A DNA stretch of 64,000 nt from an uncultured bacterium (GCA_903904875.1 CAIVEC010000001.1:10147-74146), one strand, 5' to 3'. Counted from the stretch's first letter, positions 15,262 through 56,200 are shown. The notes: generated by a model not told the origin, from the letters alone. Made by a program: numbers and translations.

Positions 15262-16458
15262 ATGGCAAAAACAAAAAATATACTCGCTCGATGAATCATC
15301 GGTATCATTACAATGATTGGATTTACGCTCTGAGCTAAAGTCACTTTCCAACCATTATACTCTGACGTAAGATTCCAACCTTCTGACAAACTCCACGCCG
15401 GGTGCACTAATTCTGCCGACATTTTGTTTTCTCCGCAGGGACAGAAAGTGAGCAAATTTACGCTGGTACTCTATTATAATCCGCAAGATGTGGAAATCCT
15501 TCGTATCTTGCCAAGCACGACGAATGGTATAGCAAGCTCAAAAATCGAGTATGATAAAATCATCCTTGAAGTGCAGAATCCTACATTTGCTTCGTCAACG
15601 GAAACAAAATCGTTTTTTCAACTCTATTTCAAAAGTAATATCATAGGCAAAGAGATATTAACGTTAGGAACAGGTTCTGAAGTCGTTACGGCAAACAAAA
15701 CCTCTCCGCTTGCAGGAACATTTAATCTAACGTTTGAACAGGTGCCGGAATGTGAACCTGATATCGTCCCCCCAAGCATTAATTTAATTTATCCAAAAAA
15801 TACCGACGATAGGATTACCTTGGATCAATATTTTATCTTTGACATCAAGGATATCGGCAAATGAGTGGACAAAAATAGCGTCATCATAAACTTTGATGGA
15901 GACCAGTATTTCTATGGATCGGATAATCTCAAACGAAATGGAAATTATCTGACGTTCTACCCAGATAAATGGATTCCTATCGATACATCTATGGACCTCA
16001 AAATCCTTGTTGCTGACCAACAATCCTATGGATGAGCAAACAAGACGGAGAGCATGTATACCTTCCAAAGCGCTACAGGGATGATGCTCAATAAACAAAT
16101 TACGCCGATGATATTCAGAAGAATGGCGCAGGAAGCAGAGAAAATATCTGCATCAGTAGATGAATGCGGACTTCTATGAGACTTATACAACAAAGCACAA
16201 TTCAGCTATCAAGTGGATCTGAGATCTATCATGCAGAAACTTGGATGTGATGTAAATACCATAGATGCAACCTTGACTGCTCCTAAGGAAGATAAGGTGC
16301 CTGCAATGAATGCTAGCCAACAACAATACAGAAATATCTCTGTCTTTGCTACGCTTGGATGGATACTCTTCTTCATCGCATTTACCTTAAAAATACATTA
16401 TCTTCTTGCATATAGGAAACACAAAAAAATTAATGAAAAATTAAGAATTAAGAATTAA
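15262..16458 (+). CDS. membrane-anchored surface protein, cohesin-like plus Ig-like (Big_5/SbsA-type) domains
   Basis: Checked codon by codon. N-terminal TM, FTLVLYYNPQDVEILRI cohesin-like region, DIVPPSINLIYP...GKGVDKNSVIINFDG Ig-like motif, C-terminal TM. The last codons lie in the arm of element copy 3. Confidence 0.7.
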
Positions 16459-25847: not shown

Positions 25848-26651
25848 TTAATTTACCCGTAACTCTCCTGGACTACCTCATTGTCCGACCTTCCAAACTC
25901 CTCCTGTTAATCATTCAATTACTAAATTATCACCAGAAACAATGATTCTTCGTGGAGTTGTTCATCAGGTAAGATAGAATCCTGAGTTGCTTTGTACTGC
26001 ACCACTAACATCTAACGCATATTCTGGTGAAGTTATTCATCCGATACCGACATTTAATCAAACATTGTAAATATTTGTACTATTGGTGATCCAGGAAGCT
26101 CAATCCCAAAATGGCGTTGCTCACAATCATATTCATGCTTGTAAAAATCCTGTAGCTCCTGTATCTCCTGTCGCTCATGTTGCTCCTGTATCTCCTGTCG
26201 CTCATGTTGTTCACATTGCTCATGTCGCTCACGTTACTCATATTGGTCATATCGCTCACGTTACTCATATTGGTCATATAGCTCATGTTGGTCCACTCAG
26301 TGCAAATCCACTAATGAAGTTGTATACTGCACCACTTGTAGATGCTATTAATTTTCCACTTGCATTAGTTCCAAGCACAGCAAAGTTTAGTAAACTGTCC
26401 ATCGTTACATCGCCTTTGAACCATGCGGTTCCGCTAGCACCGTTTAAAAAAACTCCTGTAGCAGAAGTAGAATTTCCGTCTAGAGTAAGAATAAGATTTC
26501 CTACAAGTATCGTCGCATTCTTTTGTGCAGTTTTAATTTCAAACGCTTTTACCATAAAGAGTATGCAGGACATTCAGAGGAAAAACAGCGTAGCTCATTT
26601 GATGAAGCTCATGCCTTTTCTTGATTGTAAGTTTTTGCTTGTAAAGCTCAT
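25848..26651 (-). CDS. collagen-like (G-X-Y) surface fibre protein
   Basis: Same N-terminal cassette as 23994..25703. About 16 uninterrupted GXY triplets (GAIGPIGVTGAIGPIGVTGATGAMGTTGATGDTG...) at about 26100-26285, about 10 of the Gly encoded by TGA. 804 nt. Confidence 0.8.
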
Positions 26652-33632: not shown

Positions 33633-35090
33633 CTACTCATCGAGTTTTTCGATAGCGAATTGGCGTGCCATATACGCTTCCGGACTCTTTTGTGTAAAAA
33701 TATCCAAGGCAAACATATAGGCATCCTTGAGATTCAGGAATGTCGCATTGGGAACAAGTGAAGGCATTCTCAGTGAGCTCCATATATCTTCCGGATGAGT
33801 CTCTGCTGAATTACAATACGACAACACCGGCCATGCTGTTCTGGCGGAAAGTGTTGGTCCGAGGCCGTTGATCATGCCGACTATGGCAATGATCACTGCG
33901 CCTTCCGGATACTTTGCATGCAATTCATTGAGTTTTTTGGCAGCTTTCAAAGGCATTTTGTGTCCTGAAATCACCACATCTTCAATGATTATGCTTGCAG
34001 GAATAGCTTTGAGGAATTCTTCATCTGCGAAACATTCAAGCTTATCATCAGGAGATCCTCTCCATAAGATGATCGGCTGTTTCGGGATGTAAAATTGGTT
34101 AACAAGCTGTGCTACGCGCATATAATTTTCCTGCACCTGAGCTAATGGATGACCATCACGGAAAGTCTGTTTTGATAATTCTTTCCAGTCGGCTGTCCTT
34201 AGTCTCCAGGAGTCATTGTCGATGACGTCAGCAACAACCAAGTTTCCAGCGGTATCGATTCCGAATTCGATTTTAAAATCGATTAAGCGGTAGCCCAATG
34301 TATTCCATGCTCCTTCCAACACCAGGAAAGTTTTGCGGGTGATTTCTTCGATTTTTACGAGCATATCAGGATTGGTAATAGTACTGCCGTCCATTGTTGT
34401 CAATGGAGTGATTTCCCAGGTCGGTTTCTTTGGATGTCGTAAAGTCCACTTTGAAATATCTTTCGGATTTTCGATCCAGGGATCATCAATGATTTTAATT
34501 GCCTCTTCAACAAGGTCTTCGATGGAAAGTTCCATGAGTTTTGTAATTTCCGGAAGCTTTTTTCCCACCAGTTTCTCGTTGATCTCTTTTAAAGATTTTT
34601 TAACATTCAGATATTTAATCAATTCTTCCTTATCCTTGGGAAGATAATCACGGAGATCCATGTCTCCTAATTTTCCTCCTTTGGTTTTCAGAAAGAGTTC
34701 AAATACCAGCTTATGGAAGCGATCTGGATTTCCTGGTTTGGCTAAATGAGGCATTCTTTCAAGGTATGATCCCGTAGCAAATCGACGGATAATTACTTCT
34801 AAGGGTATCATAGTACAATTTTTTGCCAAAATTTCTGTATCAGACAACTGTTCGATATACGCCGTACGGATACCTGCCTGTTCCAGCAATTCGAATATTC
34901 TGCTGGTTGTCTGAGTTGCACAAATGGCTTTTTTCTCCAGAGAACGGGTTTTTGAGGCATCATTGTCTGCCGTAGTTTCATTAGTGCTTTCCATGATAAC
35001 TAGATCATGGCGCTGGGCAACTGCCCAGATCTTTTTTGTTTTCCCTGATGTTAAGGGATTTTTGCCAAATTTCTTGAATTTTTTCTGCAT
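33633..35090 (-). CDS. bifunctional SAICAR synthetase / class II AIR carboxylase (PurC-PurE fusion, PAICS-like)
   Basis: 485-aa intact ORF. IPLEVIIRRFATGSY, DFKIEFG, ADVIDNDSWRL (PurC part). ISGHKMP, GMINGLGPTLS, IWSSLRMPS (PurE part). No TGA. Confidence 0.85.
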   Translation of the reverse strand: MQKKFKKFGKNPLTSGKTKKIWAVAQRHDLVIMESTNETTADNDASKTRSLEKKAICATQTTSRIFELLEQAGIRTAYIEQLSDTEILAKNCTMIPLEVIIRRFATGSYLERMPHLAKPGNPDRFHKLVFELFLKTKGGKLGDMDLRDYLPKDKEELIKYLNVKKSLKEINEKLVGKKLPEITKLMELSIEDLVEEAIKIIDDPWIENPKDISKWTLRHPKKPTWEITPLTTMDGSTITNPDMLVKIEEITRKTFLVLEGAWNTLGYRLIDFKIEFGIDTAGNLVVADVIDNDSWRLRTADWKELSKQTFRDGHPLAQVQENYMRVAQLVNQFYIPKQPIILWRGSPDDKLECFADEEFLKAIPASIIIEDVVISGHKMPLKAAKKLNELHAKYPEGAVIIAIVGMINGLGPTLSARTAWPVLSYCNSAETHPEDIWSSLRMPSLVPNATFLNLKDAYMFALDIFTQKSPEAYMARQFAIEKLDE

Positions 35091-38006: not shown

Positions 38007-39512
38007 ATTGTACTATTAATTTGTTTCTATTAATGCATCTACTCCTCATCCGATAATGTAATCGATTACTGATCTCTCAGCGACTAATCATAAGTCATCA
38101 GCACGTTTCAACATTACCCGGACATATCCTCTTGTCTCCGGATTGAAAATCAACGGAGCGTCTATATATTGCATGACTCATTTGTCTTTGAGCGCTTGCA
38201 GATGGTTTTTGTAAAATATTTTCCATTGAGTGTTATCTATATTATACGATCCGTCAAAAAGCATCCTGGATAATACTGTTCCGAATTCCGTTCTCGGCAC
38301 CGGATCATTGGGGTCAAACACCGTCTTCGGAGTGACGCCATCAGGCTCCATTCACATGAGTTCCAATTGGCACGCAGTCTTCATATAAAATTTCATTTCT
38401 TCACTTTCATTGGCGATATCGGTATATGCATCGCATCACGGTTTCTGATAATCCGGTATCAGTCACATTTTTCTGATAGCGAATTCAGATATCATTTTTG
38501 CAAGATGCTTCCTCAACAAAGGACCCATGACGTCAGCCTGGGTGATAGGGATTTTTGTCGTAACGGCGAGATTGCATGCATAGAGATATCCTTGTTCCAA
38601 TTCTGAAGAATAGGTGCTTCCCTCCAATGAACAATCAGTTGCGCTGGTATGCGATGGAACATATTCTTCACAGCAGGTATGGTCATAATAACTTGGTGAA
38701 TTATCTATTCCTTCATCATTCGCACATTCCAAGGTACTTGGAAGTTCACAATCATCTTGGTATAATATACCTGGTCAGTTTCAACAATTTTTTGTCCCTA
38801 GAACATATTGAGTATTTCAGCAATTACTCGTTTGCACAAAAGATAGTCACGCACAGACGGTATTTGGATTCGGATTCCGAACATCTGTACACATCCCGCT
38901 TCACCATACCAAACCTATTCATCCATAGTTATCTCGTAAATACCCTGAAAGCATATCTCCATCGGGTGTAGGGACAAAACGCAGTGTCTGAGAAAAGGTA
39001 GGAAGATATTGGTTACTAGAAAATTGTAATTGGGTTCAGGCAATAAGTTCATACCTATATCATGATCGTATATGCGTTATATCTCCATAGACATAGGAAT
39101 CGCTACTTCCATTACAGCCAAGAAATAATCATCCCGTCATCTGAAGAGCGTCGTAGGCTCAAGAAAGTGTTTGGAGAATGGTTAATGTATCTTGATCTAA
39201 CGGCCGGAATCTCATTCCTCTCTGATTATTGTAATATACTCCTCTGAGTTTTTTGTAGCAAGTTTTGGTAGAGCTTCCGAGCTGGACTGTTTCTGGAGTT
39301 CCAAGATTTTCCGGTGAGCGTAAAAATACAAGCCCTCCAAAATTATTTCATCAATAGAAAAATCAGACCGTGCTTTGGTTATTCTGTAGATCGGAAAGCG
39401 CTCATGTAAACAATACCGTATCTTCTGCATCATAGTCTATAAGAGCTGCTTGTACAACAACAGGAATACAGAGACCGATAACCAGCAATAAGAGTATTTT
39501 TTTTATCTGCAT
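38007..39512 (-). CDS. secreted protein with Cys-rich linker and SLH-like C-terminal anchor module
   Basis: All codons 38733-39512 checked. Signal MQIKKILLLLVIGLCIPVVVQA. DDCELPSTLECANDEGIDNSPSYYDHTCC and GCDAYTD...MKTACQLELMGMEPDGVTPKTVFDPNDPVPRTEFGTVLSR are paralogous to the end of 48363..50885. 1506 nt. Confidence 0.7.
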
Positions 39513-39871: not shown

Positions 39872-42754
39872 ATGAAGAAAAAATTAGCTTCTTGGAAATC
39901 AGGTTGAAAATATCTTGTGGTATTTTTGTTGGGAGTGCTTTTCACTTTTGCAATCACCAATGGATTCACACTGATCCACTCTACAGTAGAAAACGCTATC
40001 CAGTTTATCAGGCAGACGAAGTTCACTGATTCCGGTTTGGATACAGGTACCGTATTCGTGGATATCAATGCAGGATCCGGATATATCAACATCAATACCT
40101 GATCGCTCGGTAATTGAACATGATGGAATTCAAGGTTTTTGGCATTGGATGCTTTGGGAAATATAACCTATGCAGCAGAACAAGATCCGATTTTTTCATC
40201 AAGTCCTGTAAGCGGAATCACACTCACCAATATAAATACTTGGAACGCAGCATATAATCGGGTACAGACCAATTCATGAGACGCATTATATTTTATCAAC
40301 AATTCATGAGATTGGGTTAATATGAGTATGACTGGCAATTGGAATAGTGGATACAATCGAATAATTACTTCATGAGATATTTTACGAGATCGATATACCA
40401 TGAGTGGATTTTCCTCACTCAGTTGTTCTACAGGAGAAATTATAAAATACAATGGGTCTACTTGGATATGTAGTAGTGATTTGGTAGGATGAAGTGGATG
40501 AAGCAACTATTACACTACCGGACTCTATTTTGATAGCGGAACTAATCTACTGACCCTCTATGTCAGCGGTTATGGACCTGTCACAGGATATATCATTTTC
40601 TCCGGTATGGATAACTGGAATAGTGCGTATAATCGAATTAATAATTCAGGAACCTTTTTACGAAGCTGGTATACTACCACAGGAATTTATATAAATACTT
40701 TAGCGACTACAACCGGGCTTAATTGTTCAACATGAGAAATCGCAAAATACAATGGGTCTACTTGGGTATGTAGTAGTGATTTAATAGGAAGTTGAGGTGG
40801 ATGAAGCAACTTTTACACTACCGGACTAGATTTTGATAGCGGAACTAATCTACTGACTCTCTATGTCAGCGGCTATGGACCTGTCACAGGATTCATCCTT
40901 TTCTCCGGTATGGATAACTGGAATAGCGCATACAATCGAATTAATAATTCAGGAACCTTTTTACGGAACCGATATACTAATTCATGAACCTTTTTACGAA
41001 ACTGGTATACCACTACAGGTATATACATCAATACGTTAGCAACAACTACTGGTCTTACTTGTTCTGCATGAGAACTTATAAAATACAATGGATCTGCTTG
41101 GGTATGTAGCGGGGATTTGGTAGGAAGTTGAGGAATTAGTTATTGGACTGCAATAGGAGACTGAACATATACATGAATACAATATCTCGGATGAGATATC
41201 GTCACTACATGATTTATTACCAAATGAATATGAGTGAGTGCTCTATGAATATATGCTACAGCGATGGGATATCAAGCAACTGCTAATTGATCTTATTCTA
41301 TCGCTATGGGATATCAGACAACTGCTAATTGATCTTATTCTACAGCTATGGGAAATACTACACAAGCTAATTGAGATTATTCTACAGCGATGGGATGGTG
41401 AACAATTGCTAGTGGAAATTATTCTACAGCGATGGGATATAATACAAAAGCTTATATAATGGGTGCTACATCTTTATGATGGAATACAACGGCTAGTTGA
41501 AGCTTTTCTACTTCAATGGGACAAAATACACAAGCAATATGACCAAGTTCTACCGCTATGGGACAAGGTTCAATGGCTATTTGAGATTCATCTACGGCGA
41601 TGGGATATCAGACACAAGCTAATTGAGATTATTCTACAGTGATGGGAAGGGACACAATTGCTAGTTGACAATATTCTACTGCGATGGGACGTCAGACAAT
41701 TGCTAATGGACTAAATTCTACGGCGATTGGATTGTGTACACATGCTAATTGAATTGATTCTACAGCAATGGGAAATATAACTACAGCAAACTGAGATGCT
41801 GCTACAGCAATGGGAACTCAGACAATTGCTAATGGACTAAATTCTACAGCAATGGGTGCAACGACACATGCTAATTGAACTGATTCTACGGCGATGGGAA
41901 ACAATACAATTGCTAGTGGATATATTTCTACTGCGATGGGAAGTTGGACAATTGCTAATTGAAATTCATCTACAGCGATGGGATCTTATACACAAGCCAT
42001 TTGAGATTATTCTACTGCTATGGGAGATGAAACAACTGCTAATGGAATTGGTTCTATTGCTATGGGATATCAAACAACCGCTGATGGAACTGGGTCTTTT
42101 GCTATTGGAAATGGAACAACCGCTAATTGAAATGGTTCTATTGCAATGTGATATTATACACATGCTAATTGAGATAGTTCTACTGCCATGGGCGATCATA
42201 CAATTGCTAATGGATATGCCTGTACGGTAATGGGGGCTTCAAATGAAATAACGACATGATCAGATTATTCCAGCATATTAGGATGACAATGAAATAAAAT
42301 ATATTGAGTATTAAATGCTTTTATCGGTGGAGGATGAAGTAATATCATAAGTTGAAGTTCCTCAATGTATTCAGTTATTCCTTGATGATCATTTAATCTT
42401 ATAGAAAATGCACAACATAGTTTTGCTTGAGGGAAAAATGCACAAGCATTGCATGATTATACTTTTGTACGAAATGGAGTTGGAGGTAGTACGGTGTTTC
42501 AATCAGAGCATTCAAATAGTTTTATTATTAATGCACCTGGAGGAGTAGGTATCGGAACTAATAATCCACAAGGAGATCTTCATGTTGCAGGAAGCGGGGT
42601 CGTGGTTTTTGAGCCACAAGACACTAATCCTCAATGAGTATGAACAGGATGTACCGTCACGTGATCAGTAGTATATGCTAAGACATCCAATAATCTTTGT
42701 TATTGTAACTGATCATGACGAACAAAATTAGTTGGACTTAATTGCGCATTCTAA
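39872..42754 (+). CDS. 960-aa surface fibre: tandem ~100-aa repeats, Hep_Hag/YadA-head repeats and beta-helix-like tail
   Basis: Checked line by line. Signal-anchor N-terminus. 2.5 x ~300-nt tandem units (40495-41130). About 25 STAMG..T.ANG.. repeats with TGA at the ANG Gly. Ends LCYCNGSG(CGA)TKLVGLNCAF. Confidence 0.85.
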
Positions 42755-43098: not shown

Positions 43099-44640
43099 AT
43101 GAAAACGCAGAAATTTTTCTTTTTTTTGTTGGTTTTCAGCATAAGCTGGATATCAACTAGAGCAACTATTCATCATGTCTATCTGGATAATACCTATAAT
43201 ACAGAATGGCATACGTTTTGCGGGGGAGTGAATGATACTGTCATCCTTCACAAACCAATAATTGCCATGAACAATATTACTTGGGTTACTCCGTTAGGTC
43301 TAATGATTTTTGCTCAGGACACCGTGATTGTGCCGTACAATAATCAAGGGGATTGGTATTTCAGTTCCACCGAAGTAGGAAAGGATGTTTATGTGTATTT
43401 CATTTCTACTCCGCCAGTTCAGCCGGCTTGCATGGCTCATGATACGAGCTTTTGTACAGCAAGTATCAATTGGACCTTGAATGCACAAAACACCAGTACA
43501 TTTTCTACCTATCTCTGGGACAATGGTGCAACTACTAAAAACAGAATAGTCACTACGGTCGGCACCTATTGGGTACAAATCACTAATGCCTGTGGTCAGA
43601 GAACTGATACGCTTCACATCACTCAGTCCAACCCTAATGCTCCTCATCTTGGAGCTGATCAGAGTTTTTGCTGGGGAAGTGGTACGATTCTCAATCCAGG
43701 AAGTACTAATGTAACTTCGTATCAATGGTCAACTGGTGCTATAACACCAACAATCACCGTAGATACGACTGGTACGTACTGGGTATATGTAATTGATGGC
43801 AATGGCTGCAGCGGCAGAGACACGATTCAAGTCACCACTTTGATTCCTATCGGTGAAGAAGAATGTTATGTAGGATTTGATACGCTCACATGGAAAAATG
43901 ATGTTAATTGGACGGTAAATTTACCCGGTAATGCTGACTCCGTACGGATCTACAAAGAGACTTCACTGAATGTGTGGACGCTTATCGGAACTGTTTCCAA
44001 GACCGTTGATCATTTCCTGGATATGGCATCTCTACCACAACAACAGAGCTATAGTTACAAAATAGCTCTAGTGGATACTTGCGGTAATGAGTCTAATCTC
44101 TCATCATTCCATACTACAATCTCACTATTGAGTGCTTACGACCAACCCAGTAACACGTATGGGTTTACATGGTCTGCATATGATGGGATTATAGTAAATG
44201 ATTATTATCTGTATGGTATCTATGGTAACGGAACTGTTACCCAAGTGGGCAGTGTACCTGGTAATCAGTTTATGTTCAATTACCTTAATCCTGATCCTGG
44301 CTTTGTAAAATATTTCGTGGGTTTTGAAACTCCGGATTGTGATGCAAAGACCAATATTGTGGTAAAAAGCAATTGGGTACTGAGAGATTCTCTACTTACC
44401 AGTGTTCATGAAGTGGGAATCATTCCGTTCGCTGTTTATCCTAATCCAGCCAGCTCACAATTGACGATCAATATCGGAGTTGAAGACTTCCAAGTGAATG
44501 TGCTTACCACGATCGGACAGGTAGTCTTGTCTGAACACAATGTGAAAACATTGGACGTAAGTAGTTTATCCAAAGGTCTGTACATTATGCAGGTAACTGC
44601 TAACGGTACAACCAGCGAAAAAAAGATTATTATCAATTAA
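43099..44640 (+). CDS. secreted repeat protein with T9SS C-terminal sorting domain (paralog of 22372..23916)
   Basis: Signal peptide and the same architecture as the paralog. CTD VYPNPASSQLTINI...GLYIMQVTANGTTSEKKIIIN. 513 codons with no TGA. Confidence 0.85.
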   Translation: MKTQKFFFFLLVFSISWISTRATIHHVYLDNTYNTEWHTFCGGVNDTVILHKPIIAMNNITWVTPLGLMIFAQDTVIVPYNNQGDWYFSSTEVGKDVYVYFISTPPVQPACMAHDTSFCTASINWTLNAQNTSTFSTYLWDNGATTKNRIVTTVGTYWVQITNACGQRTDTLHITQSNPNAPHLGADQSFCWGSGTILNPGSTNVTSYQWSTGAITPTITVDTTGTYWVYVIDGNGCSGRDTIQVTTLIPIGEEECYVGFDTLTWKNDVNWTVNLPGNADSVRIYKETSLNVWTLIGTVSKTVDHFLDMASLPQQQSYSYKIALVDTCGNESNLSSFHTTISLLSAYDQPSNTYGFTWSAYDGIIVNDYYLYGIYGNGTVTQVGSVPGNQFMFNYLNPDPGFVKYFVGFETPDCDAKTNIVVKSNWVLRDSLLTSVHEVGIIPFAVYPNPASSQLTINIGVEDFQVNVLTTIGQVVLSEHNVKTLDVSSLSKGLYIMQVTANGTTSEKKIIIN

Positions 44641-44644
44641 TATA

Positions 44645-44675
44645 AATCCGGGAGTTTTTCTTCCGGATTTTTTTA
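44645..44675 (+). terminator. intrinsic terminator (near-copy of 23937-23968)
   Basis: aatccgggag-ttttt-cttccggatt followed by a T-run. Confidence 0.75.
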
Positions 44676-44793
44676 TTATATATATTTTCTTTATAAATGG
44701 TTGTTAAAAGGTCAGTATTTTGGCACGAAAAATGACAAATATATCCTCCGGGGATATACTTGAATATACATTTATTTGGTCGATGAATTGCAA

Positions 44794-45906
44794 ATGTATG
44801 TGTCACGAACAAGAATGCGTAATATTTTCCTCTGAGGAATGGGAATAATTGTCCTTTTCCTAGCTTTTTTGTATTCTGACAATACCATGGTCGGTTTCTC
44901 AGAATTTAAATTTCTCTCAGGAGGAAATGAAATCGATACCTTGAATTTGGAAATCACCGGAGGAGATACGACCGGTTTCTCAGTCAAGATCTACAACAAG
45001 GAAGATATAGCTATGACCTATAGATTATGATTTGTCGATGCAGGAGTGACAAATGACTCGTTCGCGCAAAGCGGTTGTCTAGGCCAGCATGAAACATCGC
45101 AATTTTGAGAGTACGTGACAGGAGATACTTCATTTTTTACTCTCACGTCATGAAATGATGTCACCAAAAGTTTGTCAGTAACATTTCCGACATATTACAG
45201 CTGAGTATATCATGGATGTATTATGTTTTATCCTGTGATGACGGGAATAACTACCAGCATTAGCGGTAGTGAAGTAACTAATGATACGAACACGCTTCCT
45301 CGCAGAGGATGATTTATGGATGTACTTGTACACCCAAGTACGTTTCCTGTGGATGTAAAAGCGTTTCCGTCTAACCGTGTGTACCAAGCAACGAATAATG
45401 CCAACACATGAATATTAAAAGTCTATGATAGCAGCAAAACATTGATAGCAACCAGTCCTCTCTTTACGCTCAACAGCGCAGGAACAGGTGAAGCATTGAT
45501 AAGTGCTCCTGCAGGAACGTATTACATGGTATTCAAATGACAATCGCATCTTGCATCATATCTCAGCGGAGTGATCCTTGGGGGAACATGAGGAGAATTT
45601 TTGGATTTCACGACAGGAACGGATTTGTACAACACGCAACAATTGAATGATGCTGAAGATGACGGATATAGATATCAGACAGCAGGAGATCTCAAAAACG
45701 TTCTCGGAGATTATGACTTCACCATCAATGGAAATGACATAGCAATCCTGACCGCGAATGGATTCCAGGAATGAGGGATCAATGTTTTGGATCCAAGAAA
45801 TTTAAATGGCGATACCGCAGTCAATGCATCGGATATCAGTGTGATAGGAGTCAATTTTGCAAAAACCGATCCGTTCTTTTCGGACAACGGAATTTTTATT
45901 TGGTAA
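44794..45906 (+). CDS. membrane-anchored protein with C-terminal dockerin-like double Ca-binding motif
   Basis: Checked codon by codon. DYDFTINGNDIAILTANGF and DPRNLNGDTAVNASDISVIGVNF resemble dockerin repeats. Start uncertain (44794, 44815 or 44839). Confidence 0.65.
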
Positions 45907-45921
45907 GAGAAGATCCGGCGA

Positions 45922-47676
45922 ATGATGTGAATCACAAGATCAGCAAAAATCATTTCTCTCTTCGTACTCGGCGTACTCAGTATTTTGGGTATCGCAAGTT
46001 TTGCCGCTGATCCAAGTTTCAGTCTCAGCATAAGTTCTTGAACGCAATTGAAATTGCATTGTAATTATATAATGGGCGTAATAATCAATCCTGGTGCGGT
46101 AAGTTACAACTGATTTGATAGCACCGTAAAGTTTGATAGTGGATTTGCTACAATCACGCATATCTCTATCAACCCATTTTTTACGAGTTCTACTAACGGA
46201 TATATCAAGAGCGGATTCCTTTACAGAGCGTATGGAGTAAGACCTGCGTGATCCGGAAATTCCGTTTTGCAAGCTGCTACGTTCTGATTCAAAACCATAC
46301 AAAATACGCTGAGCACTATGCTCGAATTTACTACCCTCACCGGATGAACTATTATCTTCGATAAGAATACGACGGACGATGGAGCAGTAATCAACTCAAG
46401 TATTTCTTCACTGGATACGCTTACCGGAATAACTGATGCAACGTATACCTTTGTGCCATTGTCATGTATCGTAGATAGCAATGCACCCGGGATGTCCAAT
46501 ACCGATCCAAGCAATGGCGATAGATATGTGGATACAGGACATGTTGTTTCGTTTATCTTGTACGACTGGGCCGGACCATGAACAGCGGTTTGACCAGCAC
46601 CGTTAGGAACGAATAATAGGAGCCATTACCGATATTCCTGATTGAATGCCATCTTAACAAATTATCAGCCAGCACCAAGTACGGTAGATAACCAAGAATG
46701 AGTAAACAGCGGAAGCATCGTCGTCAATATTTCATGTCCGACCTGTTCCTGATCATGGGCATATACGTTCACGGCAGCGAATCTGAACATCACTACGTGG
46801 TTATGAAATTCTTCGATCAACAGATATACGCGAGATAGTAAAGACAGATGATACGCGGTGAATTTTCCTGCACCAGCCCCATATGAAATAGAAAAACTTG
46901 TTACGGTAAATGTGCAATGAGTGGATAATCCAAATGAAAACGGAAATATACATACAGGAAATTATTCCTTCTCATTCAACGCTCCTTCACTTCCAACAAT
47001 TACAAGAATAGCGCCATCTCTATCGACGAATATCAATCCAAAGATAGATCCGATTATTTTCCATTTTGAAGACGATTGGGCTGGAGTGAATCCTGATACG
47101 ATCAGTCTCACTATTCCAGAAATTTTATCTGGAAGTACCGTTATCTATACTGGATATACCTATTCATGATCTGATTTCACTATCATCCTTATCAACGGAT
47201 CAGCAGGAACAGGAAACTCTGGATGATATGAAGTATCCTTTACCCCGAAACGGGAATTCCCTTCAAATACCACCATTACCCTTACCTGATCTGTCTATGA
47301 TTATGCGGGCAATCATGGAATATATGCAGGCAGCTTTACCACAAGGATGAGTTGTGCCGATCGGTGATGTGCAGATATTTTTCAGCTTAATATTTTATGA
47401 TGAACAAACATCTGAAATTATCTCTTCACGTGATCACTGATTATCGTCACATGAACGAATCTCTCTTCGCCATATCCATATCTCACATGAACCAATAATG
47501 ATATCCTCATGTGCGGACGACCTTATACCTGAACAATCCTTACTTGAAATATCTGAATCTACGACAAGAGCGGAACACAAATCAATGGAAGCATGTTTAC
47601 CGGAAATGAGATTTATATCACGGGAATGGACGGATTGGATTTTATATTCAGCGGCGACAAAATTATCATTCAATAG
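45922..47676 (+). CDS. secreted protein with cohesin-like N-domain and Ig-like (Big_5-type) domains
   Basis: Checked codon by codon. Signal peptide. HFEDDWAGVNPDTISLTIPE motif. TAG stop. 1755 nt. Confidence 0.7.
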
Positions 47677-47691
47677 TTTTATTTTGGAAAT

Positions 47692-48378
47692 ATGATGATG
47701 AAAAAAATTCTTGGAATAGCAGCACTCATAATGATCCTCTGAGTCAGTACGGCGGCAGAAATCAGATTTTCTCCTGATAGTGGAAATATAGGAAAAGGAT
47801 GTTTAGTGACAGCGGATATTATCGTAAATACCGATAGTAGAGATATAGCCGCAACAGACATAATGATAGAAAGTTCTCTTGATTTTGTGGACTTCGTGCC
47901 TACGAAGATGTTTCCGTATTTTCTTCCTCCCCAAGTAAAAGATAGCATGATCCATATTGTCGGATTCACTATCGATCCCAAACATCGTGTCAAAGGGAAA
48001 TGAAGTATCGGAACATTGTATCTGAAACAAAAAGGATATGATGATAGCGATGGAACAATAAAATTATATTTCAAAAAGAAATGAGATACCACAGATTCCA
48101 ATCTTAGTGTCGCAGGAGGTATAGATATCCTCGATACGGTAGGAACAGCATATTATCAATTTACTGATAGCGGAGCTTGTGCACATTATGCAGGAGAAGC
48201 TATCAACTGATGAATAGCTAATGCATCGCTCAATAGCGTGATAACAAAAATCAATCGCAATCAGCGAATGCAAAAAATATTCAATCGAAAAACACTCATA
48301 GCGTTTGCGTGATTATTGATCGTGATAACATTTTTATTTCTTTATTATAAAAACACTAAGCAATGAAAAAAAAGGTAG
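47692..48378 (+). CDS. cohesin-like domain protein with C-terminal TM anchor
   Basis: Signal peptide, then EIRFSPDSGNIGKGCLVTADIIVNTD...IMIESSLDFVDFVP, then a C-terminal TM. 687 nt. Confidence 0.7.
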
Positions 48379-50885
48379 TACAGTATAAATTATGAATATT
48401 TGTATGTACTCTTCTCGGAGGAATATTTTCTCTCGTTGCTGGACAATATTATTATTTTGATACCTGAAGCACCAATTATCCGCTTCAACAATGATGTAAT
48501 GAAACCTTGAACATAAGAGCAAATACAGAATCTCATCCGTATGGAGCAAGAGCATGACTTTTACGTCTGCTGTTTGATCCGCTCCATTTTTCGTATTCCA
48601 CATCTTCGCTTGCCAGCGTCTTGCAGACAGATTTATTTCTTGCAAGCACACAGACATTTCTGATGTATACCAACCCTTCGCTTTCACCGACATGGGTAGG
48701 TACCGGTACAACTATTTTGCAGATTGATCGTTACAATCCTAGCAGTGATTATATCTGAAGTAATGGGCTGTATGGAACGTTAAAATTTGTACCGTTATAT
48801 AATGCAACTGATTATACGTGAACTTTTGCTATGATCTACAATGGCGATACGGTTAAAACATCATTGAGTATGATATGAGGTACTAATATTATTATTTCTG
48901 GACATCAAATACCTCGCCTTACATGATATTATTATATTACTCAAGCGCCTTGTGTAGTAGATACTACAGCACCTAGTGTTGCGATACTTGTACCAAGCTG
49001 AGGAACAAAACAATCTCATCTTAGTGGAATAGCACTTACGCTTAATGAAAATGGTGGATCAACAGATGTACCGTATGTATGGACAGGAGGAATTCCCGGT
49101 ATCGGTATATGGACAGGAAATAGTTGGGGACTCACCAACCAATATGGAGTGAATTTTGATACCTTCCAGATACGGATTTCTGGAAATGGGACAGGAAGAT
49201 ATTTTACGGGAGGAATGTTCTCTCCTTCGTGAACGCTTTCCACAGTGGCTAATGGAACCACATGGCAATTCCGCGACAAAAATTATACCGTAGATATCAG
49301 CGGTTCAGAACTCTTTGATTATGGTATAGAAAAACCGATTATTATCTCTGGAAATGTAAGAGACCGAAATAACAATCTCAGAACTTTCAGTCTGAATTTC
49401 AATCCTGCTGTAGGACCATGGCTTATTCCATGATCAGCTAATCCTGCATGATGAGCAACCTGGATAGGAACGGCAGTGCCGATACAATTGGGAATAGCAG
49501 ATGATTGGGCATGAGTAAACTCATGAACTATTCGTGTCACTATACAATGAATTTGATGAACGACATACTGACCGTATATTTTCTCATGAAACAATCTCAA
49601 CCTTTCTGGTGTACGATGAATCGCTAATCAGCCTGATTATTATATCACTATTTCCGGTCATGTTGTATTCCCTACATCATGAACTATCCAAGTGAGCGTC
49701 TATGCGGAAGACATGGAAGGCAATGCAAGCAGTATCTCTCCGTATAGTTTCTGAACAAGGCCGTCATGCGGAGATCTTGGATGTTGCAATGAGGTATATA
49801 TTCAGACAGGAATAAATATTCCGTTCCTCTATAGCGGATTTACCCTCAATGTTTCTGGTGGACTCGACGCGTCATTTACGATGAGCGGAAGTACAGGAAC
49901 TTTGTATTGTGGTACAGAAAATCAGGGAATGGATATCTACAGGTGAACAGAAGCAAATACCTGAAGTGCAATATATGTCAGCTACTTTGATCTGCCAAAT
50001 TTAGTTCTCTCATGACATAATGTCAAAGCTGTGCTTTCAGGAAAAACACTCTATCTCCAAAAAATATATGTACCGCCAATCACCTGATGATGTATAGGTA
50101 CTTGTCCTGGTGGATGAGGTGGTGGTTGATGATGAGGAAACATTATTAGAGATGATTGTGAGCTTCCAAGCAATTTTGAATGTGCAAATACTGGAGGAAT
50201 AGATAATTCCCCAAGTTATTATGATACCACATGTTGTGCTGCTCCTATGACAGGACACGGTGCAGCAGAGTGTGATATTTCTTTTCCAGCATCATATAGC
50301 CAGGAAATCAGTGAAGCATACCAACGATGATATAATCTCAATATTACGAACAAATGCCCTATCGTTGAAGCTCGTCTAGATGATACTATTGTGAGAAAGG
50401 AAGTCGCCAAAATGATGACGATGTTTACGATCCAGATCATAGGTATTTTCCCTGATACGCATAAAGCGTGATGTGACGAATTCACGGATACGAAATATCT
50501 GACCGATGAAATGAAATTCTTCACCAAGACTGCTTGTCAGCTTGATCTCATGGGACTCGAACCTAACGGAAATACCGTAAAAAAGACATTTGAACCTAAT
50601 GATCCTGTCGATAGGGCGCAGTTTGGTACTATCCTTTCGAGATTGATTTATGGTGACGTATATAATGTCTATAGCGGTGAAACATATCAACGATATGAAA
50701 AACATCTCCAAGTATTGTTTGAAGATGGTATCATAAAAAAAATACAGGATCCGTTTATGCTAGAAAAAAGAGCTCGAATATTATTGATGCTAAAAAGAAC
50801 TGATGATAGTAATTTCATCGAACAATACCGTCTTGTAGCTCCGGCTCACAACGGCGCACTTTCTCTCTTGGAAAACGTTTGGTAA
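48363..50885 (+). CDS. 840-aa surface protein: cohesin-like plus Ig-like domains, poly-Gly, Cys-rich linker, SLH-like anchor
   Basis: Checked line by line. Overlaps the previous gene by 16 nt. GIADDWAGVNSGTIRVTI. Run of 10 Gly at 50109-50138. DDCELPSNFECANTGGIDNSPSYYDTTCC. SLH-like end. Confidence 0.75.
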
Positions 50886-50925: not shown

Positions 50926-51549
50926 ATGAAAAAATCATTTTTCTTGGTTATTGTAGCATTTTCACTATTCCTATTTACCGGTTGTCGGAACAAACCATTG
51001 GATGCACAAACATGCGCATTGACATGATGAGTCGCTTGCTGAATAGCTGATCATAGCGATCTCAGCGGTTCTATTGATACTGTTTTATTGGCATTGAAAA
51101 ATCAGGATTTCGCTACATTAGCGCAATTCGTCTGACCGCAAGGACTCCGTTTTTCTCCCTATGAACATGTAAGCACGGGAACAGATATCGTTCTCAGTAC
51201 GGAAGAAGTAGCTAACGCATTAACGATATCCAGATCGTATATCCGGTGAGCGTATGACGGCTCAGGCGAACCTATCGACTTATGAATCTGACAGTATTTC
51301 GAGAAATTCGTCAACGACGCGGATTATGCAACCGCACCAGAAGTGTATCAGAATCAAAGCATCCAAAGAGGAAATACCATCAATAATATCGCTGAAGTGT
51401 ATTCAGGCAAACAATGGGTGGAATTCTATTTTTCAGGATTCGATGCTCAATACCAATGAATGGATCGAAAGAGTCTGACATTAGTATTTGAACAAGTGAA
51501 TAATGAATGGTATCTCATCGGTATCATTCACGGGCAACGGACTATATAA
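50926..51549 (+). CDS. lipoprotein (207 aa)
   Basis: Lipobox LFLFTGC. All codons checked. CGG/CGA sit at plausible W sites (SYIWGAYDG, GMDWKSL, HGQWTI). Confidence 0.7.
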
Positions 51550-52768: not shown

Positions 52769-53413
52769 CTAATCGATTTTTCTTGCGACAAAACCCATCC
52801 ATGTTTTATTATACGGATCGGCAAAGATTCTTTTATTGATGATTTCAAATCCATGATTCTCGAGTGTCTCCTGAAGTTCTTGTTCAGTCCGATGTTTTCT
52901 GAATCTAATCATTCTTTTATTATAATCATGTTTCGTCTCTAGCCCTTCCCTGGACACCTCCGCTTTTGTAGTGCTCAAGAAGATAAGACCATTTGGTTTC
53001 AATATCTTTTTCACTTTTTTGAATACTTCCTGAATCTTGTCTTTGGGGAAGAGATGGATGAATGCACTCATATACACCGAATCAAATGTCTCTTGGAATT
53101 CATGCTGCAAAAAATCCGCCTCAATGATATCTGACATAGGGTTTCTTGTTTTCGCATACGTTGTCATTTCATGAGAAAGCTCAACACCAGTACACAAAAA
53201 CCCCTTATCATTGAAACACTTAACGGCTATCCCGACAGCGCAACCTATGTCCAAAACACTGTTTCCAGGCTGTAAGTATGTTGCGCAAATCTCTATAGCT
53301 TCTACCGTCATCGGGATTAAACTTCCGACACGAGACTCATACTCATCAGCAAGCGTATCATATGCTTGTTTGTGAATACTATCATCAGATTTATGTTTGA
53401 GGTTTCTTTTCAT
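52769..53413 (-). CDS. class I SAM-dependent methyltransferase
   Basis: VLDIGCAVGI motif I. 214 codons with no TGA. Confidence 0.8.
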   Translation of the reverse strand: MKRNLKHKSDDSIHKQAYDTLADEYESRVGSLIPMTVEAIEICATYLQPGNSVLDIGCAVGIAVKCFNDKGFLCTGVELSHEMTTYAKTRNPMSDIIEADFLQHEFQETFDSVYMSAFIHLFPKDKIQEVFKKVKKILKPNGLIFLSTTKAEVSREGLETKHDYNKRMIRFRKHRTEQELQETLENHGFEIINKRIFADPYNKTWMGFVARKID

Positions 53414-54787: not shown

Positions 54788-56200
54788 ATGTTTCAAAATA
54801 AAAAATCTAAAATAAAAAAAGATATGATACAAACCAAAACATTTATTCGCGCTACGGGAAAGTATATTCCTGAGCGTGTCGTGCCAAACTCGGATTTTGA
54901 AGATCCAGAGAAATATGAATTCTTCATATCCAATGACAAAAAAGAAGAACGCTCCAATCTTGAAATTGCCGACAAACTTGCAGAAATCACGGGTATCAAA
55001 GAACGACGATATTTTGATGAGCATACGACAACTTCAGATGCAGGCTATCGTGCCGCAAAAAACGCTTATGATGCTTCCAGAGATGATCCACAAAAAACCG
55101 ATGTCTTCATTTTCGCTCATAATTTCGGTGACATCCGTTATGAAGAGGATAAGTTTGATTGTGTGCCCTGCCATGCAGCAAGAATCAAGAATAATCTCGG
55201 TGTAGAAAACCCTTATACGGTTGCTTATGATATCGCTATCAGCGGTGCTTGTTTGATAAGGGATCTCACGAAACTAAAGGAGTATCTTGCTTTGGGGCCT
55301 AATGATCTTGTCGTAGAAACTGAGAATTATGAGCTCACTGGTATCTATGAAAAAGCTCAGCGTGCTTTTTCTCTTCTTGACGTGCAAAAGGAAAGCTTAC
55401 ATCGGATTATTGTGATTCATATTATTTATGAAAAATTATGTCTTGCAGCCAAAGTAAAAAGAAGGCTGGAAACAGCTAATCCCGATGCGCTTGCTTTTGA
55501 TGTGCTTTTCGGCTGTCCTGGGTGGCTCCATAGTGTAAGCATTGCTGACGCATTCATCACCTCAGAGAAAGCAAAAAAAATCATGGTTATCGGTGCTGAA
55601 GCATTATCACGAGTATCTGATTATTCAGATCCGGATAGCCAGATCTATTCTGATGGAGGAGGCGCCATCTATCTTGAGGGACGAAAAGTAGACGTTTCTG
55701 AGACCCTGGATGATAGTTTTTTCATCTTTGCATCTGTGGGTGCCGGTATGAATCGTAATGTCATGGTGTACTCCAAAAAGTATGGCATCTTAGGTTATCT
55801 TGTATGTTCAGATACCACATCGAAGTATCTCAATCTGCTCTGGATGGATAGATCGTATAATTCTAAGATCGCTGGCTTATATCTCAAAATAAAGGGATCA
55901 ACTGTCTTTGGATATGCAAAAGGGAAAGTTCCTGAGCTTATCAAACAGCTGATGGACAAGCTTGGAATAAACATCAATCAAGTAATCCGCATGTATCTTC
56001 ACCAGGCTAATGAGACATTGGATATAGCAATGACAAAGGGCGTCTTCGAACTTTGTTGTGGCAGAAAAGACTATTCCACTGATCCTCCTACCCCTAGCTA
56101 CATCATTCCTGATGGGCTCGTTCCTATGACCATTCAAAAGTATGGCAATAATTCCGTTGCTACACTACCTATACTGTTGGATGAGTTTGGATTGCAGTAA
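54788..56200 (+). CDS. FabH-like beta-ketoacyl synthase III family protein with ~90-aa internal insertion
   Basis: ITGIKE(CGA CGA)YFDE, AFDVLFGCPGW active-site Cys, IGAEALS(CGA)VSD, HQAN, GNNSVATLP. 470 codons with no TGA. True start may be ATG 54824. Confidence 0.8.
   Translation: MFQNKKSKIKKDMIQTKTFIRATGKYIPERVVPNSDFEDPEKYEFFISNDKKEERSNLEIADKLAEITGIKERRYFDEHTTTSDAGYRAAKNAYDASRDDPQKTDVFIFAHNFGDIRYEEDKFDCVPCHAARIKNNLGVENPYTVAYDIAISGACLIRDLTKLKEYLALGPNDLVVETENYELTGIYEKAQRAFSLLDVQKESLHRIIVIHIIYEKLCLAAKVKRRLETANPDALAFDVLFGCPGWLHSVSIADAFITSEKAKKIMVIGAEALSRVSDYSDPDSQIYSDGGGAIYLEGRKVDVSETLDDSFFIFASVGAGMNRNVMVYSKKYGILGYLVCSDTTSKYLNLLWMDRSYNSKIAGLYLKIKGSTVFGYAKGKVPELIKQLMDKLGININQVIRMYLHQANETLDIAMTKGVFELCCGRKDYSTDPPTPSYIIPDGLVPMTIQKYGNNSVATLPILLDEFGLQ

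What the first reader, a model, noticed from the sequence alone, without database searches (positions are those of the whole stretch)
44794..50885. Four-gene operon-like block of cohesin-like, dockerin-like, Ig-like and SLH-like surface proteins (cellulosome-style parts without any enzyme)
Four consecutive plus-strand genes each begin with their own signal or anchor sequence. Gene 1 ends in two dockerin-like Ca-binding segments (DFTINGNDIAIL; DPRNLNGDTAVNASDISVI). Genes 2-4 begin with cohesin-like beta-sandwich regions and carry DDWAGVN..TI Ig-like (Big_5/SbsA-type) motifs. Gene 3 ends in a TM anchor. Gene 4 ends in an SLH-like module. Genes 1-3 are even in the same reading frame, separated only by TAA (45904) and TAG (47674), each followed 5 codons later by ATG; genes 3 and 4 overlap by 16 nt. 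A related cohesin-like/Ig-like protein sits at 15262..16458. No glycoside hydrolase or other catalytic domain is visible. This may be a self-assembling adhesion or attachment scaffold, which would suit an epibiotic lifestyle.
Basis: inference. Interest (0 to 1): 0.7.

Follow-up and report, generated by a model that had tools for sequence, protein, structure and literature searches.

The report
Enzyme-free cohesin–dockerin surface operon in SR1
A conserved operon in a tiny, probably host-attached bacterium that reads the stop codon UGA as glycine encodes surface proteins built from very divergent versions of the cellulosome's "plug and socket" modules (dockerin and cohesin) with no enzymes attached, so it most likely builds an anchored surface scaffold rather than a plant-fibre-degrading machine.

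Summary
Four consecutive + strand genes lie at the stated coordinates, and a fifth lipoprotein gene follows. Domain calls:
- Gene 3 is a cohesin fold. Its top 25 PDB fold hits are all cohesins, and it links to Pfam-validated cohesins at E 1.5e-15.
- Gene 2's N-domain is cohesin-like (E 1e-6). Gene 4's is too, less strongly.
- Gene 1's conserved C-terminal tail is a divergent dockerin. All 15 PDB matches of its family profile are dockerins.
- Genes 2 and 4 each carry a Big_5 Ig domain (95% probability).
- The "SLH-like" end of gene 4 is only weakly supported.
- No catalytic domain was found.

Gene order is conserved across the 24 loci fetched from Absconditabacteria/Gracilibacteria-type genomes. 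Many relatives add a gene that fuses the cohesin–Ig body to the dockerin half. None of these proteins passes Pfam's cut-offs, and database entries that carry a name are called hypothetical.

Most likely reading (about 0.6): an enzyme-free cohesin–dockerin surface scaffold, anchored in membrane and wall. Binding itself is untested. It is a new variant of a known kind.

The parts
44644..44670 (+). Intrinsic terminator (11-bp stem plus T run) that ends the upstream T9SS-tail gene and separates it from the cassette
44732..44760 (+). Best sigma-70-like promoter match (10/12) upstream of g1. It lies downstream of the alternative TTG start at 44701, which favours the ATG at 44794.
   Evidence: Consensus match only. 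Homologues are also about 360-370 aa.
44794..45906 (+). g1, 370 aa: N-terminal hydrophobic helix (residues 5-31), two beta-sandwich domains, C-terminal dockerin-like tail
44902..45234 (+). g1 beta-sandwich domain A (residues 37-147), PapD-like/Ig-like, with a conserved Cys pair (C95, C142)
   Evidence: AF2 pLDDT 73-91. The fold hits (WxLIP, pilus chaperones) are generic. Invariant columns.
45304..45606 (+). g1 beta-sandwich domain B (residues 171-271), weakly CarboxypepD_reg-like
   Evidence: hhalign E 1.2e-3
45667..45903 (+). g1 dockerin-like tail (residues 292-370). Repeat 1 is residues 304-320 (45703..45753) and is degenerate at loop positions 1 and 3. Repeat 2 is residues 336-355 (45799..45858) and is a canonical loop, N-L-N-G-D-T-A-V-N-A-S-D, followed by a helix.
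   Evidence: Most conserved part of the family. All 15 PDB profile hits are dockerins. The motif is unique in the window. AF2 confidence is low here.
45922..47676 (+). g2, 584 aa: signal peptide, cohesin-like N-domain (residues 29-175, 46006..46446), Big_5-like Ig domain (residues 357-472, 46990..47337, DDWAGVN at 47071..47091), Cys-containing C-terminal beta region. No anchor.
47692..48378 (+). g3, 228 aa: signal peptide, one cohesin module (residues 23-158, 47758..48165), helical stalk, C-terminal TM anchor (residues 201-219, 48292..48348) and a basic tail
48363..50885 (+). g4, 840 aa: signal peptide, cohesin-like N-domain (residues 27-195, 48441..48947), Big_5-like domain (residues 352-464, 49416..49754), beta region, poly-Gly linker (residues 583-592), Cys-rich plus helical C-terminal module (residues 596-840, 50148..50882) with one SLH-like motif (residues 740-754)
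50926..51549 (+). g5, 207 aa lipoprotein (lipobox LFTG|C). It belongs to the cassette in one clade only.
15262..16458 (+). Unlinked paralogue, 398 aa: signal peptide, cohesin-like N-domain, Big_5 domain (residues 167-244, 15760..15993), C-terminal TM anchor (residues 359-384)
38016..39512 (-). 498-aa secreted protein whose C-terminal ~250 residues (38019..38765) are the same Cys-rich/SLH-like module as the end of g4
   Evidence: profile E 9e-107

Best explanation
This is a conserved operon of a code-25 bacterium (Absconditabacteria/SR1-type). It encodes an enzyme-free cell-surface assembly built from highly divergent cohesin and dockerin modules.

The parts, all shown by analysis:
- g3 is a single cohesin held in the membrane by a C-terminal TM helix.
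- g4 is a cohesin-like domain followed by Ig domains, with a C-terminal module shared with another surface protein. That module probably binds the wall (inferred).
- g2 is a secreted cohesin-like plus Ig protein with no anchor of its own.
- g1 carries two Ig-like beta-sandwiches and the only dockerin-like module in the window.

Proposed mechanism (inferred, not shown): the calcium-loaded dockerin of g1 plugs into one or more of the cassette cohesins. This ties the proteins into a layered scaffold that spans membrane and wall. In relatives, an extra protein has both a cohesin and a dockerin, so it could cross-link or extend the scaffold. The structure would serve as surface coat or attachment apparatus.

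Shown: module identities, operon structure, conservation and modular swapping. Inferred: the binding itself, partner specificity, wall anchoring and the adhesive role.
For: Genetic code and organism.

Cohesin:
- The AF2 model of the g3 orthologue has pLDDT 85-92 over most of the domain.
- Its top 25 PDB fold hits are all cohesins: 1g1k E 5e-8, TM 0.72, rmsd 3.1 A. Only 54 hits have E<=1e-3.
- The g3 profile's three best PDB sequence hits are cohesins.
- An exhaustive HMMER search links the family to 299 relatives. Of 94 distant ones, 23 hit Pfam Cohesin, best 2.7e-15.
- hhalign against five Pfam-validated cohesins: g3 E 1.5e-15, g2 E 1e-6 over 135 columns, paralogue E 1.4e-5, g4 E 3e-4.
- g3 and g4 N-domains match at E 2e-7.
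- A broad cohesin profile hits exactly four of 526 window ORFs below E 1e-4.

Dockerin:
- All 15 PDB hits of the tail profile are dockerins, and several span both repeats.
- The canonical Ca loop is conserved at positions 1, 3, 5, 9 and 12.
- The motif is unique in the window.

Relatives P0243 and P0212 combine curated Cohesin and Dockerin_1 in one chain.

Big_5: 95% probability in g2 and in g4.

Operon and conservation:
- An upstream terminator, short gaps and a conserved g3/next-gene overlap.
- Gene order is kept across the 24 loci with different flanks.
- Fusion genes swap the SLH-like end for the dockerin half.

No catalytic domain.
Against: - No cohesin-dockerin contact was modelled or measured.
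- g1-g4 themselves fall below Pfam's cut-offs for Cohesin, Dockerin_1, SLH and Big_5.
- AF2 gives the tail low confidence, pLDDT 32-52.
- The first dockerin repeat lacks the usual ligands at loop positions 1 and 3.
- The g2 and g4 N-domain profiles do not reach PDB cohesins directly, and g4's link to validated cohesins is modest.
- Wall anchoring rests on a sub-threshold SLH motif.
- g1 may stay membrane-anchored by its N-terminal helix, which complicates a simple cargo-on-scaffold picture.
- Many non-cellulosomal cohesins and dockerins have no demonstrated partner.
Confidence: 0.6

Rival explanations
1. The genes encode independent surface proteins (S-layer-like or adhesin proteins) that are only co-expressed. 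The cohesin-like domains act as ordinary beta-sandwich spacers or ligand binders. The dockerin-like tail is a calcium-stabilised terminal module, or it binds something other than a cohesin, such as a wall polymer or a host surface.
For: - Many non-cellulosomal cohesin and dockerin modules have no known partner (background summarised in PMC9012536).
- There are three or four cohesin-like domains for one dockerin in this window.
- The first dockerin repeat is degenerate.
- The tail is modelled with low confidence.
Against: - Cohesin-like and dockerin-like genes are strictly co-inherited in one operon across diverse relatives with different flanks.
- The tail is the most conserved part of g1.
- In the genome scan, whose two search patterns were g1-family peptides, the tail turned up only in cassette genes g1 and the fusion gene.
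- Related proteins combine curated Cohesin and Dockerin_1 in one chain, as scaffoldins do.
Confidence: 0.25
2. The cassette is an analogue of the Firmicute WxL/Csc cell-surface-complex loci, or of chaperone-assisted fibre assembly. In this reading g1, with its PapD-like/WxLIP-like double beta-sandwich, binds and stabilises the other cassette proteins by beta-strand complementation. The dockerin-like tail would be secondary.
For: - The top fold hits of the g1 model are E. faecium WxLIP (9i1y, 9i25; E 1e-9), followed by pilus chaperones.
- WxL loci likewise combine a small protein, a large protein and a TM-anchored two-Ig-domain protein (PMC10599100).
Against: - TM-scores are low (<=0.38), and 791 PDB chains match at E<=1e-3, so the fold match is generic.
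- No WxL, DUF916 or DUF3324 hit was found.
- g1's hydrophobic helix is N-terminal, whereas WxLIP's TM helix is C-terminal.
- This reading does not explain the cohesin and dockerin evidence.
Confidence: 0.08
3. It is a true, minimal cellulosome for polysaccharide degradation, whose dockerin-bearing enzymes are encoded elsewhere in the genome.
For: The cohesin plus SLH-like and cohesin plus membrane-anchor architectures resemble anchoring scaffoldins.
Against: - No glycoside hydrolase or carbohydrate-binding module was found in the cassette proteins or their neighbours.
- The tail profile finds no other dockerin in the 64-kb window.
- In the scan of 185,579 genomes, which used two g1-family peptide patterns and so could only find g1-type tails, the confirmed tail-bearing ORFs were g1 or the fusion gene, including a single locus in the complete SR1 genome RAAC1_SR1_1.
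- Each protein carries one cohesin-like domain, not a multi-cohesin scaffoldin.
- These organisms have very reduced metabolism (PMC8080830).
Confidence: 0.04

Closest known systems
Cellulosome anchoring systems: Ruminococcus flavefaciens ScaE (single type III cohesin, wall-anchored) binding an X-dockerin, and Clostridium/Acetivibrio anchoring scaffoldins (cohesin plus SLH)
   Same: A single cohesin on a C-terminal anchor (g3 resembles ScaE; 2zf9 is among its top fold hits). A cohesin-bearing protein ending in a possible wall-binding module (g4). A dockerin at the C-terminus of a non-anchored partner. The unusual first repeat of the g1 tail aligns with the R. flavefaciens dockerin 5k39_B.
   Different: No enzymes, carbohydrate-binding modules or multi-cohesin scaffoldin. 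The g1-type tail was detected only in cassette genes. The anchor is a TM helix rather than a sortase signal. The SLH assignment is weak. All modules fall below Pfam thresholds. The host is an ultra-small code-25 bacterium, not a fibre degrader.
Non-cellulosomal cohesin-dockerin modules: Archaeoglobus fulgidus (2xdh), Clostridium perfringens toxin/glycosidase complexes (2vo8, 2jh2, 2w1n), ANME archaea
   Same: Cohesin and dockerin used outside cellulose degradation. These structures are among g3's best fold matches. A role in cell-cell interaction has been proposed for ANME (PMC9012536).
   Different: Here the modules sit in one compact, syntenic operon with dedicated membrane and wall anchors, and there is a natural cohesin-dockerin fusion variant. 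Neither the Vampirococcus paper nor the Gracilibacteria metaproteogenomics paper mentions cohesin, dockerin or SLH, and literature searches found no description of such a cassette in these lineages.
WxL / Csc cell-surface-complex gene clusters of Enterococcus and Lactobacillus
   Same: A small operon of secreted surface proteins: a two-Ig-domain TM protein plus small and large partners. The g1 model's best fold hits are WxLIP.
   Different: No WxL, DUF916 or DUF3324 sequence signal. The TM helix is at the opposite end. The interaction modules here are cohesin-like and dockerin-like.

Membership tests
Cohesin (Pfam PF00963; cohesin fold) | Beta-sandwich jelly-roll fold that superposes on solved cohesins | tested here: met
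   The model of the g3 orthologue has pLDDT 85-92 over most of the domain. Its top 25 PDB hits are all cohesins, TM 0.38-0.74 normalised to target (mostly 0.6-0.74), best rmsd 3.1 A.
Cohesin (Pfam PF00963; cohesin fold) | Score above Pfam's curated cut-off for the Cohesin model | tested here: not met
   No Cohesin hit for g2, g3, g4 or the paralogue, nor for any of 16 g3 orthologues. It is met only by distant relatives: 23 of 94, best 2.7e-15.
Cohesin (Pfam PF00963; cohesin fold) | Profile-level homology to validated cohesins | tested here: met
   hhalign against five Pfam-validated cohesins: g3 98.5%/1.5e-15, g2 91%/1e-6, paralogue 80%/1.4e-5, g4 40%/3e-4. g3 and g4 N-domains match at 2e-7.
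Cohesin (Pfam PF00963; cohesin fold) | Binds a cognate dockerin | not testable with these tools
   No multimer prediction was available. The restricted tools also refuse table-25 translations.
Dockerin (Pfam PF00404) | Two tandem segments, each a 12-residue EF-hand-type Ca loop followed by a helix | tested here: inconclusive
   Repeat 2 (residues 336-355) is canonical and conserved at positions 1, 3, 5, 9 and 12. Repeat 1 (residues 304-320) keeps positions 5, 9 and 12 but is variable at 1 and 3. Short helices are predicted after both loops, at low confidence.
Dockerin (Pfam PF00404) | Sequence-profile similarity to solved dockerins | tested here: met
   All 15 PDB chains with E<=10 are dockerins, best 0.0028. 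Alignments cover both repeats.
Dockerin (Pfam PF00404) | Score above Pfam's curated cut-off for Dockerin_1 | tested here: not met
   No hit for g1. Only 4 of 29 tails hit, all sub-threshold, best E 0.027.
SLH domain (Pfam PF00395) | Score above Pfam's curated cut-off | tested here: not met
   g4 scores 13-17 bits against a cut-off of 20.8, matching only model positions 29-43. 7 of 12 orthologous modules hit, best E 5e-4.
SLH domain (Pfam PF00395) | Three tandem SLH repeats | tested here: not met
   The three candidate segments (residues 643-692, 702-765, 774-815) are not detectably related to one another (E 0.13-0.4). The module profile hits nothing in PDB.
SLH domain (Pfam PF00395) | Pyruvylated secondary cell-wall polymer pathway (csaB) in the genome | not tested
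   Only a 64-kb window was held.
Big_5 bacterial Ig-like domain (PF13205) | Homology to validated Big_5 domains | tested here: met
   hhalign 95.2%, E 2.8e-8 for g2 residues 357-472 and for g4 residues 352-464. The paralogue scores E 7e-10. Single-sequence Pfam is below cut-off.
Cellulosome | Dockerin-bearing carbohydrate-active enzymes and a multi-cohesin scaffoldin with a carbohydrate-binding module | tested here: not met
   No catalytic or carbohydrate-binding domain in g0-g5. There is one cohesin-like domain per protein. The only dockerin-like ORF in the window is g1. In the genome scan, which used g1-family peptide patterns, the confirmed tail-bearing ORFs were g1 or fusion genes.
WxL / Csc surface-complex locus | WxL domains, plus a DUF916-DUF3324 protein with a C-terminal TM helix | tested here: not met
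   No such Pfam hits. Only a generic fold resemblance. The g1 helix is N-terminal.

The most novel reading that the evidence does not exclude
The cassette encodes a self-polymerising cohesin-dockerin fibre or lattice. In lineages with the fusion gene, which has a cohesin at the head and a dockerin at the tail, subunits would chain head-to-tail from the g3 membrane and g4 wall anchors. This would form the fibrous coat of predatory or epibiotic Absconditabacteria, mediating attachment to prey and the stacking of daughter cells. It would be a structural, enzyme-free use of the cellulosome plug-and-socket system in a bacterium with a minimal genome.
Probability: 0.15. Interest if true: 0.8.

Novelty: new variant of a known kind. 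Interest (0 to 1): 0.55.

Why it matters
Absconditabacteria and their relatives are ultra-small bacteria, and the two cultivated members are epibiotic predators. How they hold on to their prey is unknown, apart from type IV pili and a "fibrous" surface made of unannotated proteins (PMC8080830).

This work gives names and a testable assembly logic to a conserved set of "hypothetical" surface proteins. It defines a dockerin, three to four candidate cohesin partners, and two kinds of anchor.

It also extends the cohesin-dockerin system to a compact, enzyme-free, operon-encoded form. The modules are so divergent that the Pfam and NCBIfam models tested here miss them, so such systems may be under-counted elsewhere.

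Tried and rejected
- Single-sequence Pfam and NCBIfam scans of g1-g5 gave nothing significant.
- One query concatenating g3, g2 and g4 was swamped by 8000 word-sharing candidates, probably drawn in by the poly-Gly run, and returned nothing. That wasted one capped search.
I therefore used database orthologues, many of which are mistranslated with W for G. That may have lowered model quality for the g1 tail.
- Profiles of the g2 and g4 N-domains and of the g4 C-terminal module found no relevant PDB sequence.
- The internal-repeat test for three SLH motifs failed.
- The tail profile did not detect the curated dockerins of distant relatives, so there is no transitive link for the dockerin as there is for the cohesin.
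- Read-through or fusion of g1-g2-g3, suggested by the shared frame, is rejected because the frame relation varies among orthologous loci.
- The longer TTG start at 44701 is rejected, because the terminator and promoter-like site lie between it and the ATG, and homologues are about 360-370 aa.
- Chimeric assembly as the explanation for the TGA-free neighbour is rejected, because the same linkage appears in three independent assemblies.
- In a literature search, neither the Vampirococcus paper nor the Gracilibacteria metaproteogenomics paper mentions cohesin, dockerin or SLH, and no paper describing such a cassette in these lineages turned up.

Full report
**Genetic code and organism.** Under the standard bacterial code the region breaks into ORFs of 40-125 aa. 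Reading TGA as a sense codon nearly triples ORF coverage of the window, from 48.6 to 136.8 kb, and yields four long + strand genes. TGA sits at invariant glycines of DnaK (DLGgGTFD, LVgGATRMP) and at the G positions of collagen-like G-X-Y repeats, so it encodes Gly, which is code 25. The surrounding genes are ordinary housekeeping genes such as ArgRS, LeuRS, TyrRS, SecD, FtsK and DnaK. Named homologues come from Absconditabacterales, Absconditicoccaceae, "Gracilibacteria" and the "gcode 4" ACD80 genome.

**The observation.** Under code 25 the genes are g1 44794..45906 (370 aa), g2 45922..47676 (584 aa), g3 47692..48378 (228 aa) and g4 48363..50885 (840 aa). A lipoprotein gene, g5, follows at 50926..51549.
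The quoted peptides are present.
- A strong terminator at 44644..44670 ends the upstream gene, and the best promoter-like site (44732..44760) precedes the ATG of g1.
- The shared frame is not conserved in orthologous loci, so it is a coincidence.
- The overlap between g3 and the following gene (-16 or -22 nt, -52 in L009) is present in all 12 loci that hold both genes. This suggests translational coupling.
- A strict EF-hand/dockerin loop motif occurs once in 68,178 aa of window ORFs, in g1. Shuffles give a mean of 0.01. A relaxed form occurs only twice, both in g1, 32 residues apart.

**Conservation.** g1 has 76 homologues and the g3 domain 77. None has a precomputed Pfam domain, and those that carry a name are called hypothetical.
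- A 57%-identical relative keeps the run 354/578/241/1001/203 aa between unrelated flanking genes.
- A scan of 185,579 genomes returned 22 loci, including the complete SR1 genome RAAC1_SR1_1.
- Table-25 ORF calling on all 24 loci gives the order g1-(fusion)-g2-g3-(fusion)-g4-(g5).
- The "fusion" gene, about 750 aa, joins a g4-like body (residues 1-568) to g1's C-terminal half including the tail. The dockerin-like half and the SLH-like end are therefore interchangeable modules on the same body.
- g5 is confined to one clade. In the RAAC1-type clade g4 is followed by an ExoIII-like gene.

**Cohesin.** Single-sequence Pfam and NCBIfam scans found no cohesin. Family-level evidence is strong for g3.
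- Its profile's three best PDB sequence hits are R. flavefaciens cohesins, weakly (E 0.025-0.07).
- An AF2 model of the 99%-identical orthologue has pLDDT 85-92 over most of the domain.
- Its top 25 fold matches are all cohesins: 1g1k E 5e-8, TM 0.72, rmsd 3.1 A. They include the non-cellulosomal Archaeoglobus and C. perfringens modules, and only 54 hits reach E<=1e-3.
- An exhaustive HMMER search found 299 relatives. Of 94 distant ones, 23 hit Pfam Cohesin (best 2.7e-15), within the region matched by the g3 profile. Many of them continue with Big_5 and CarboxypepD_reg.
- Two relatives, P0243 and P0212, combine curated Cohesin and Dockerin_1 in one chain.
- Against an alignment of five Pfam-validated relatives with signal peptides removed, hhalign gives g3 98.5%/1.5e-15, g2 91%/1e-6 over the whole domain, the 15262 paralogue 80%/1.4e-5 and g4 40%/3e-4. 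Unrelated controls score 0.2-0.8.
- The g3 and g4 N-domains match directly at E 2e-7.
- A broad profile hits exactly these four ORFs out of 526 below E 1e-4.
- The g2 and g4 profiles alone do not reach PDB cohesins.

**Dockerin.** The last ~80 residues are the best conserved part of the g1 family.
- Repeat 2 (N-L-N-G-D-x-A-[VI]-N-x-S-D plus a helix) fits the 12-residue Ca loop at positions 1, 3, 5, 9 and 12.
- Repeat 1 keeps positions 5, 9 and 12 only.
- A profile of 29 tails matches 15 PDB chains at E<=10. All are dockerins (best 0.0028), and several alignments span both repeats. The R. flavefaciens dockerin 5k39_B aligns with the odd first repeat.
- Pfam Dockerin_1 is reached, below threshold, by only 4 of 29 tails.
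- AF2 models the tail with low confidence.
- g1's other two domains are PapD-like/Ig-like beta-sandwiches. The best fold hits, WxLIP and pilus chaperones, are generic: TM<=0.38, with 791 hits at E<=1e-3.

**Ig and anchor modules.**
- g2 residues 357-472 and g4 residues 352-464 match validated Big_5 domains at 95% probability (E 2.8e-8).
- g3 ends in a TM helix with a basic tail.
- g4's C-terminal 245 residues form a Cys-rich plus helical module that is also found at the end of the protein encoded at 38016..39512(-).
- Pfam SLH matches 7 of 12 such modules. All are below cut-off (g4: 17 against 20.8 bits), and in g4 the match covers only the F-x-P...[TD]-R-A-Q motif.
- That module's profile hits nothing in PDB, and three internal repeats are not detectable. 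"SLH-like" is therefore a weak call. "Shared anchoring module" is an inference from its reuse.

**Interpretation.** The parts of a cohesin-dockerin system are present without any enzyme or carbohydrate-binding module. Only g1 carries a dockerin in this window.

In the genome scan, whose two search patterns were g1-family peptides, the tail turned up only in g1 and fusion genes. A tail-HMM search of complete genomes is still needed to show that the dockerin is confined to the cassette.

The most economical mechanism is Ca-dependent docking of g1 (and the fusion protein) onto cassette cohesins held at the membrane (g3) and perhaps at the wall (g4), with g2 as a further unanchored component. Binding, specificity and function are inferred, not shown.

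Rivals are independent co-expressed surface proteins, a WxL-like or chaperone-like complex, and a true cellulosome. The last is the least likely.

**Comparison and novelty.** Non-cellulosomal cohesins and dockerins are known in all three domains of life and have been proposed to mediate cell-cell contact in ANME archaea (PMC9012536). Single-cohesin anchors such as ScaE, and cohesin-SLH anchoring scaffoldins, are the nearest analogues.

I found no description of such modules in Absconditabacteria or Gracilibacteria. The Vampirococcus and Gracilibacteria papers mention neither.

This is a new variant of a known kind: compact, syntenic, enzyme-free and very divergent. It offers a concrete, testable candidate for part of the surface or attachment apparatus of these bacteria.

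Noticed in passing
22372..23916 (+) and 43099..44640 (+); also 33633..35090 (-), 52769..53413 (-), 54788..56200 (+), 14335..14760 (-): Several genes have no in-frame TGA at all, although neighbouring genes use TGA for 18-44% of their glycines. The first two are paralogous secreted proteins. The one scanned (43099..44640) has a T9SS C-terminal sorting domain (Por_Secre_tail, E 7e-14), which is odd for a bacterium of this group. The others are a PurC/PurE fusion, a methyltransferase, an ACP_syn_III-like gene and a 141-aa ORF of unknown function. The same linkage appears in three independent assemblies. They look like recent acquisitions from standard-code donors that have not yet been recoded.
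   Followed up: partly
38016..39512 (-): A 498-aa secreted protein shares the entire Cys-rich/SLH-like C-terminal module of g4 (profile E 9e-107), with a different N-terminal part. This suggests a common anchoring module for several surface proteins.
   Followed up: partly
23994..25703 (-), 25848..26651 (-), 39872..42754 (+): These are Gly-rich repeat surface proteins with 23-54 TGA codons each. One has collagen-like G-X-Y repeats, and two have 'STAMG'-type repeats; the orthologue of 39872..42754 has a weak YadA_head hit. The two minus-strand genes share a nearly identical N-terminal ~40 residues.
   Followed up: no
48361..48378: The ATG of g4 overlaps an in-frame TGA (Gly) codon of g3 (cAATGAaaaaaaaggTAG). 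The overlap between g3 and the next gene (-16 or -22 nt, -52 in L009, frame +2) is kept in all 12 loci that hold both genes.
   Followed up: yes
L007, L009, L013 (RAAC1_SR1_1), L016, L017, L019, L020, L022, L023, L024: An extra cassette gene of about 750 aa (1052 aa in L024) fuses a g4-like cohesin-Ig body to g1's C-terminal half with the dockerin-like tail. Its position differs between clades: after g1, or after g3. This window has no such gene.
   Followed up: partly
P0001-P0153 (database homologues); loci L003-L019: Many public translations of this family carry W where the DNA has TGA, which looks like code 4 translation. Several source MAGs are labelled 'Candidatus Peribacteria' although their cassette ORFs are intact only when TGA is read as a sense codon.
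   Followed up: no
L006 2868..3997: One relative has a 1.1-kb gap between g1 and g2, where other loci have 1-15 nt. This may be an insertion.
   Followed up: no
50109..50138: The linker between the body of g4 and its C-terminal module is a run of ten glycines, four of them encoded by TGA (three consecutive). This low-complexity run probably caused the failed concatenated protein search.
   Followed up: no
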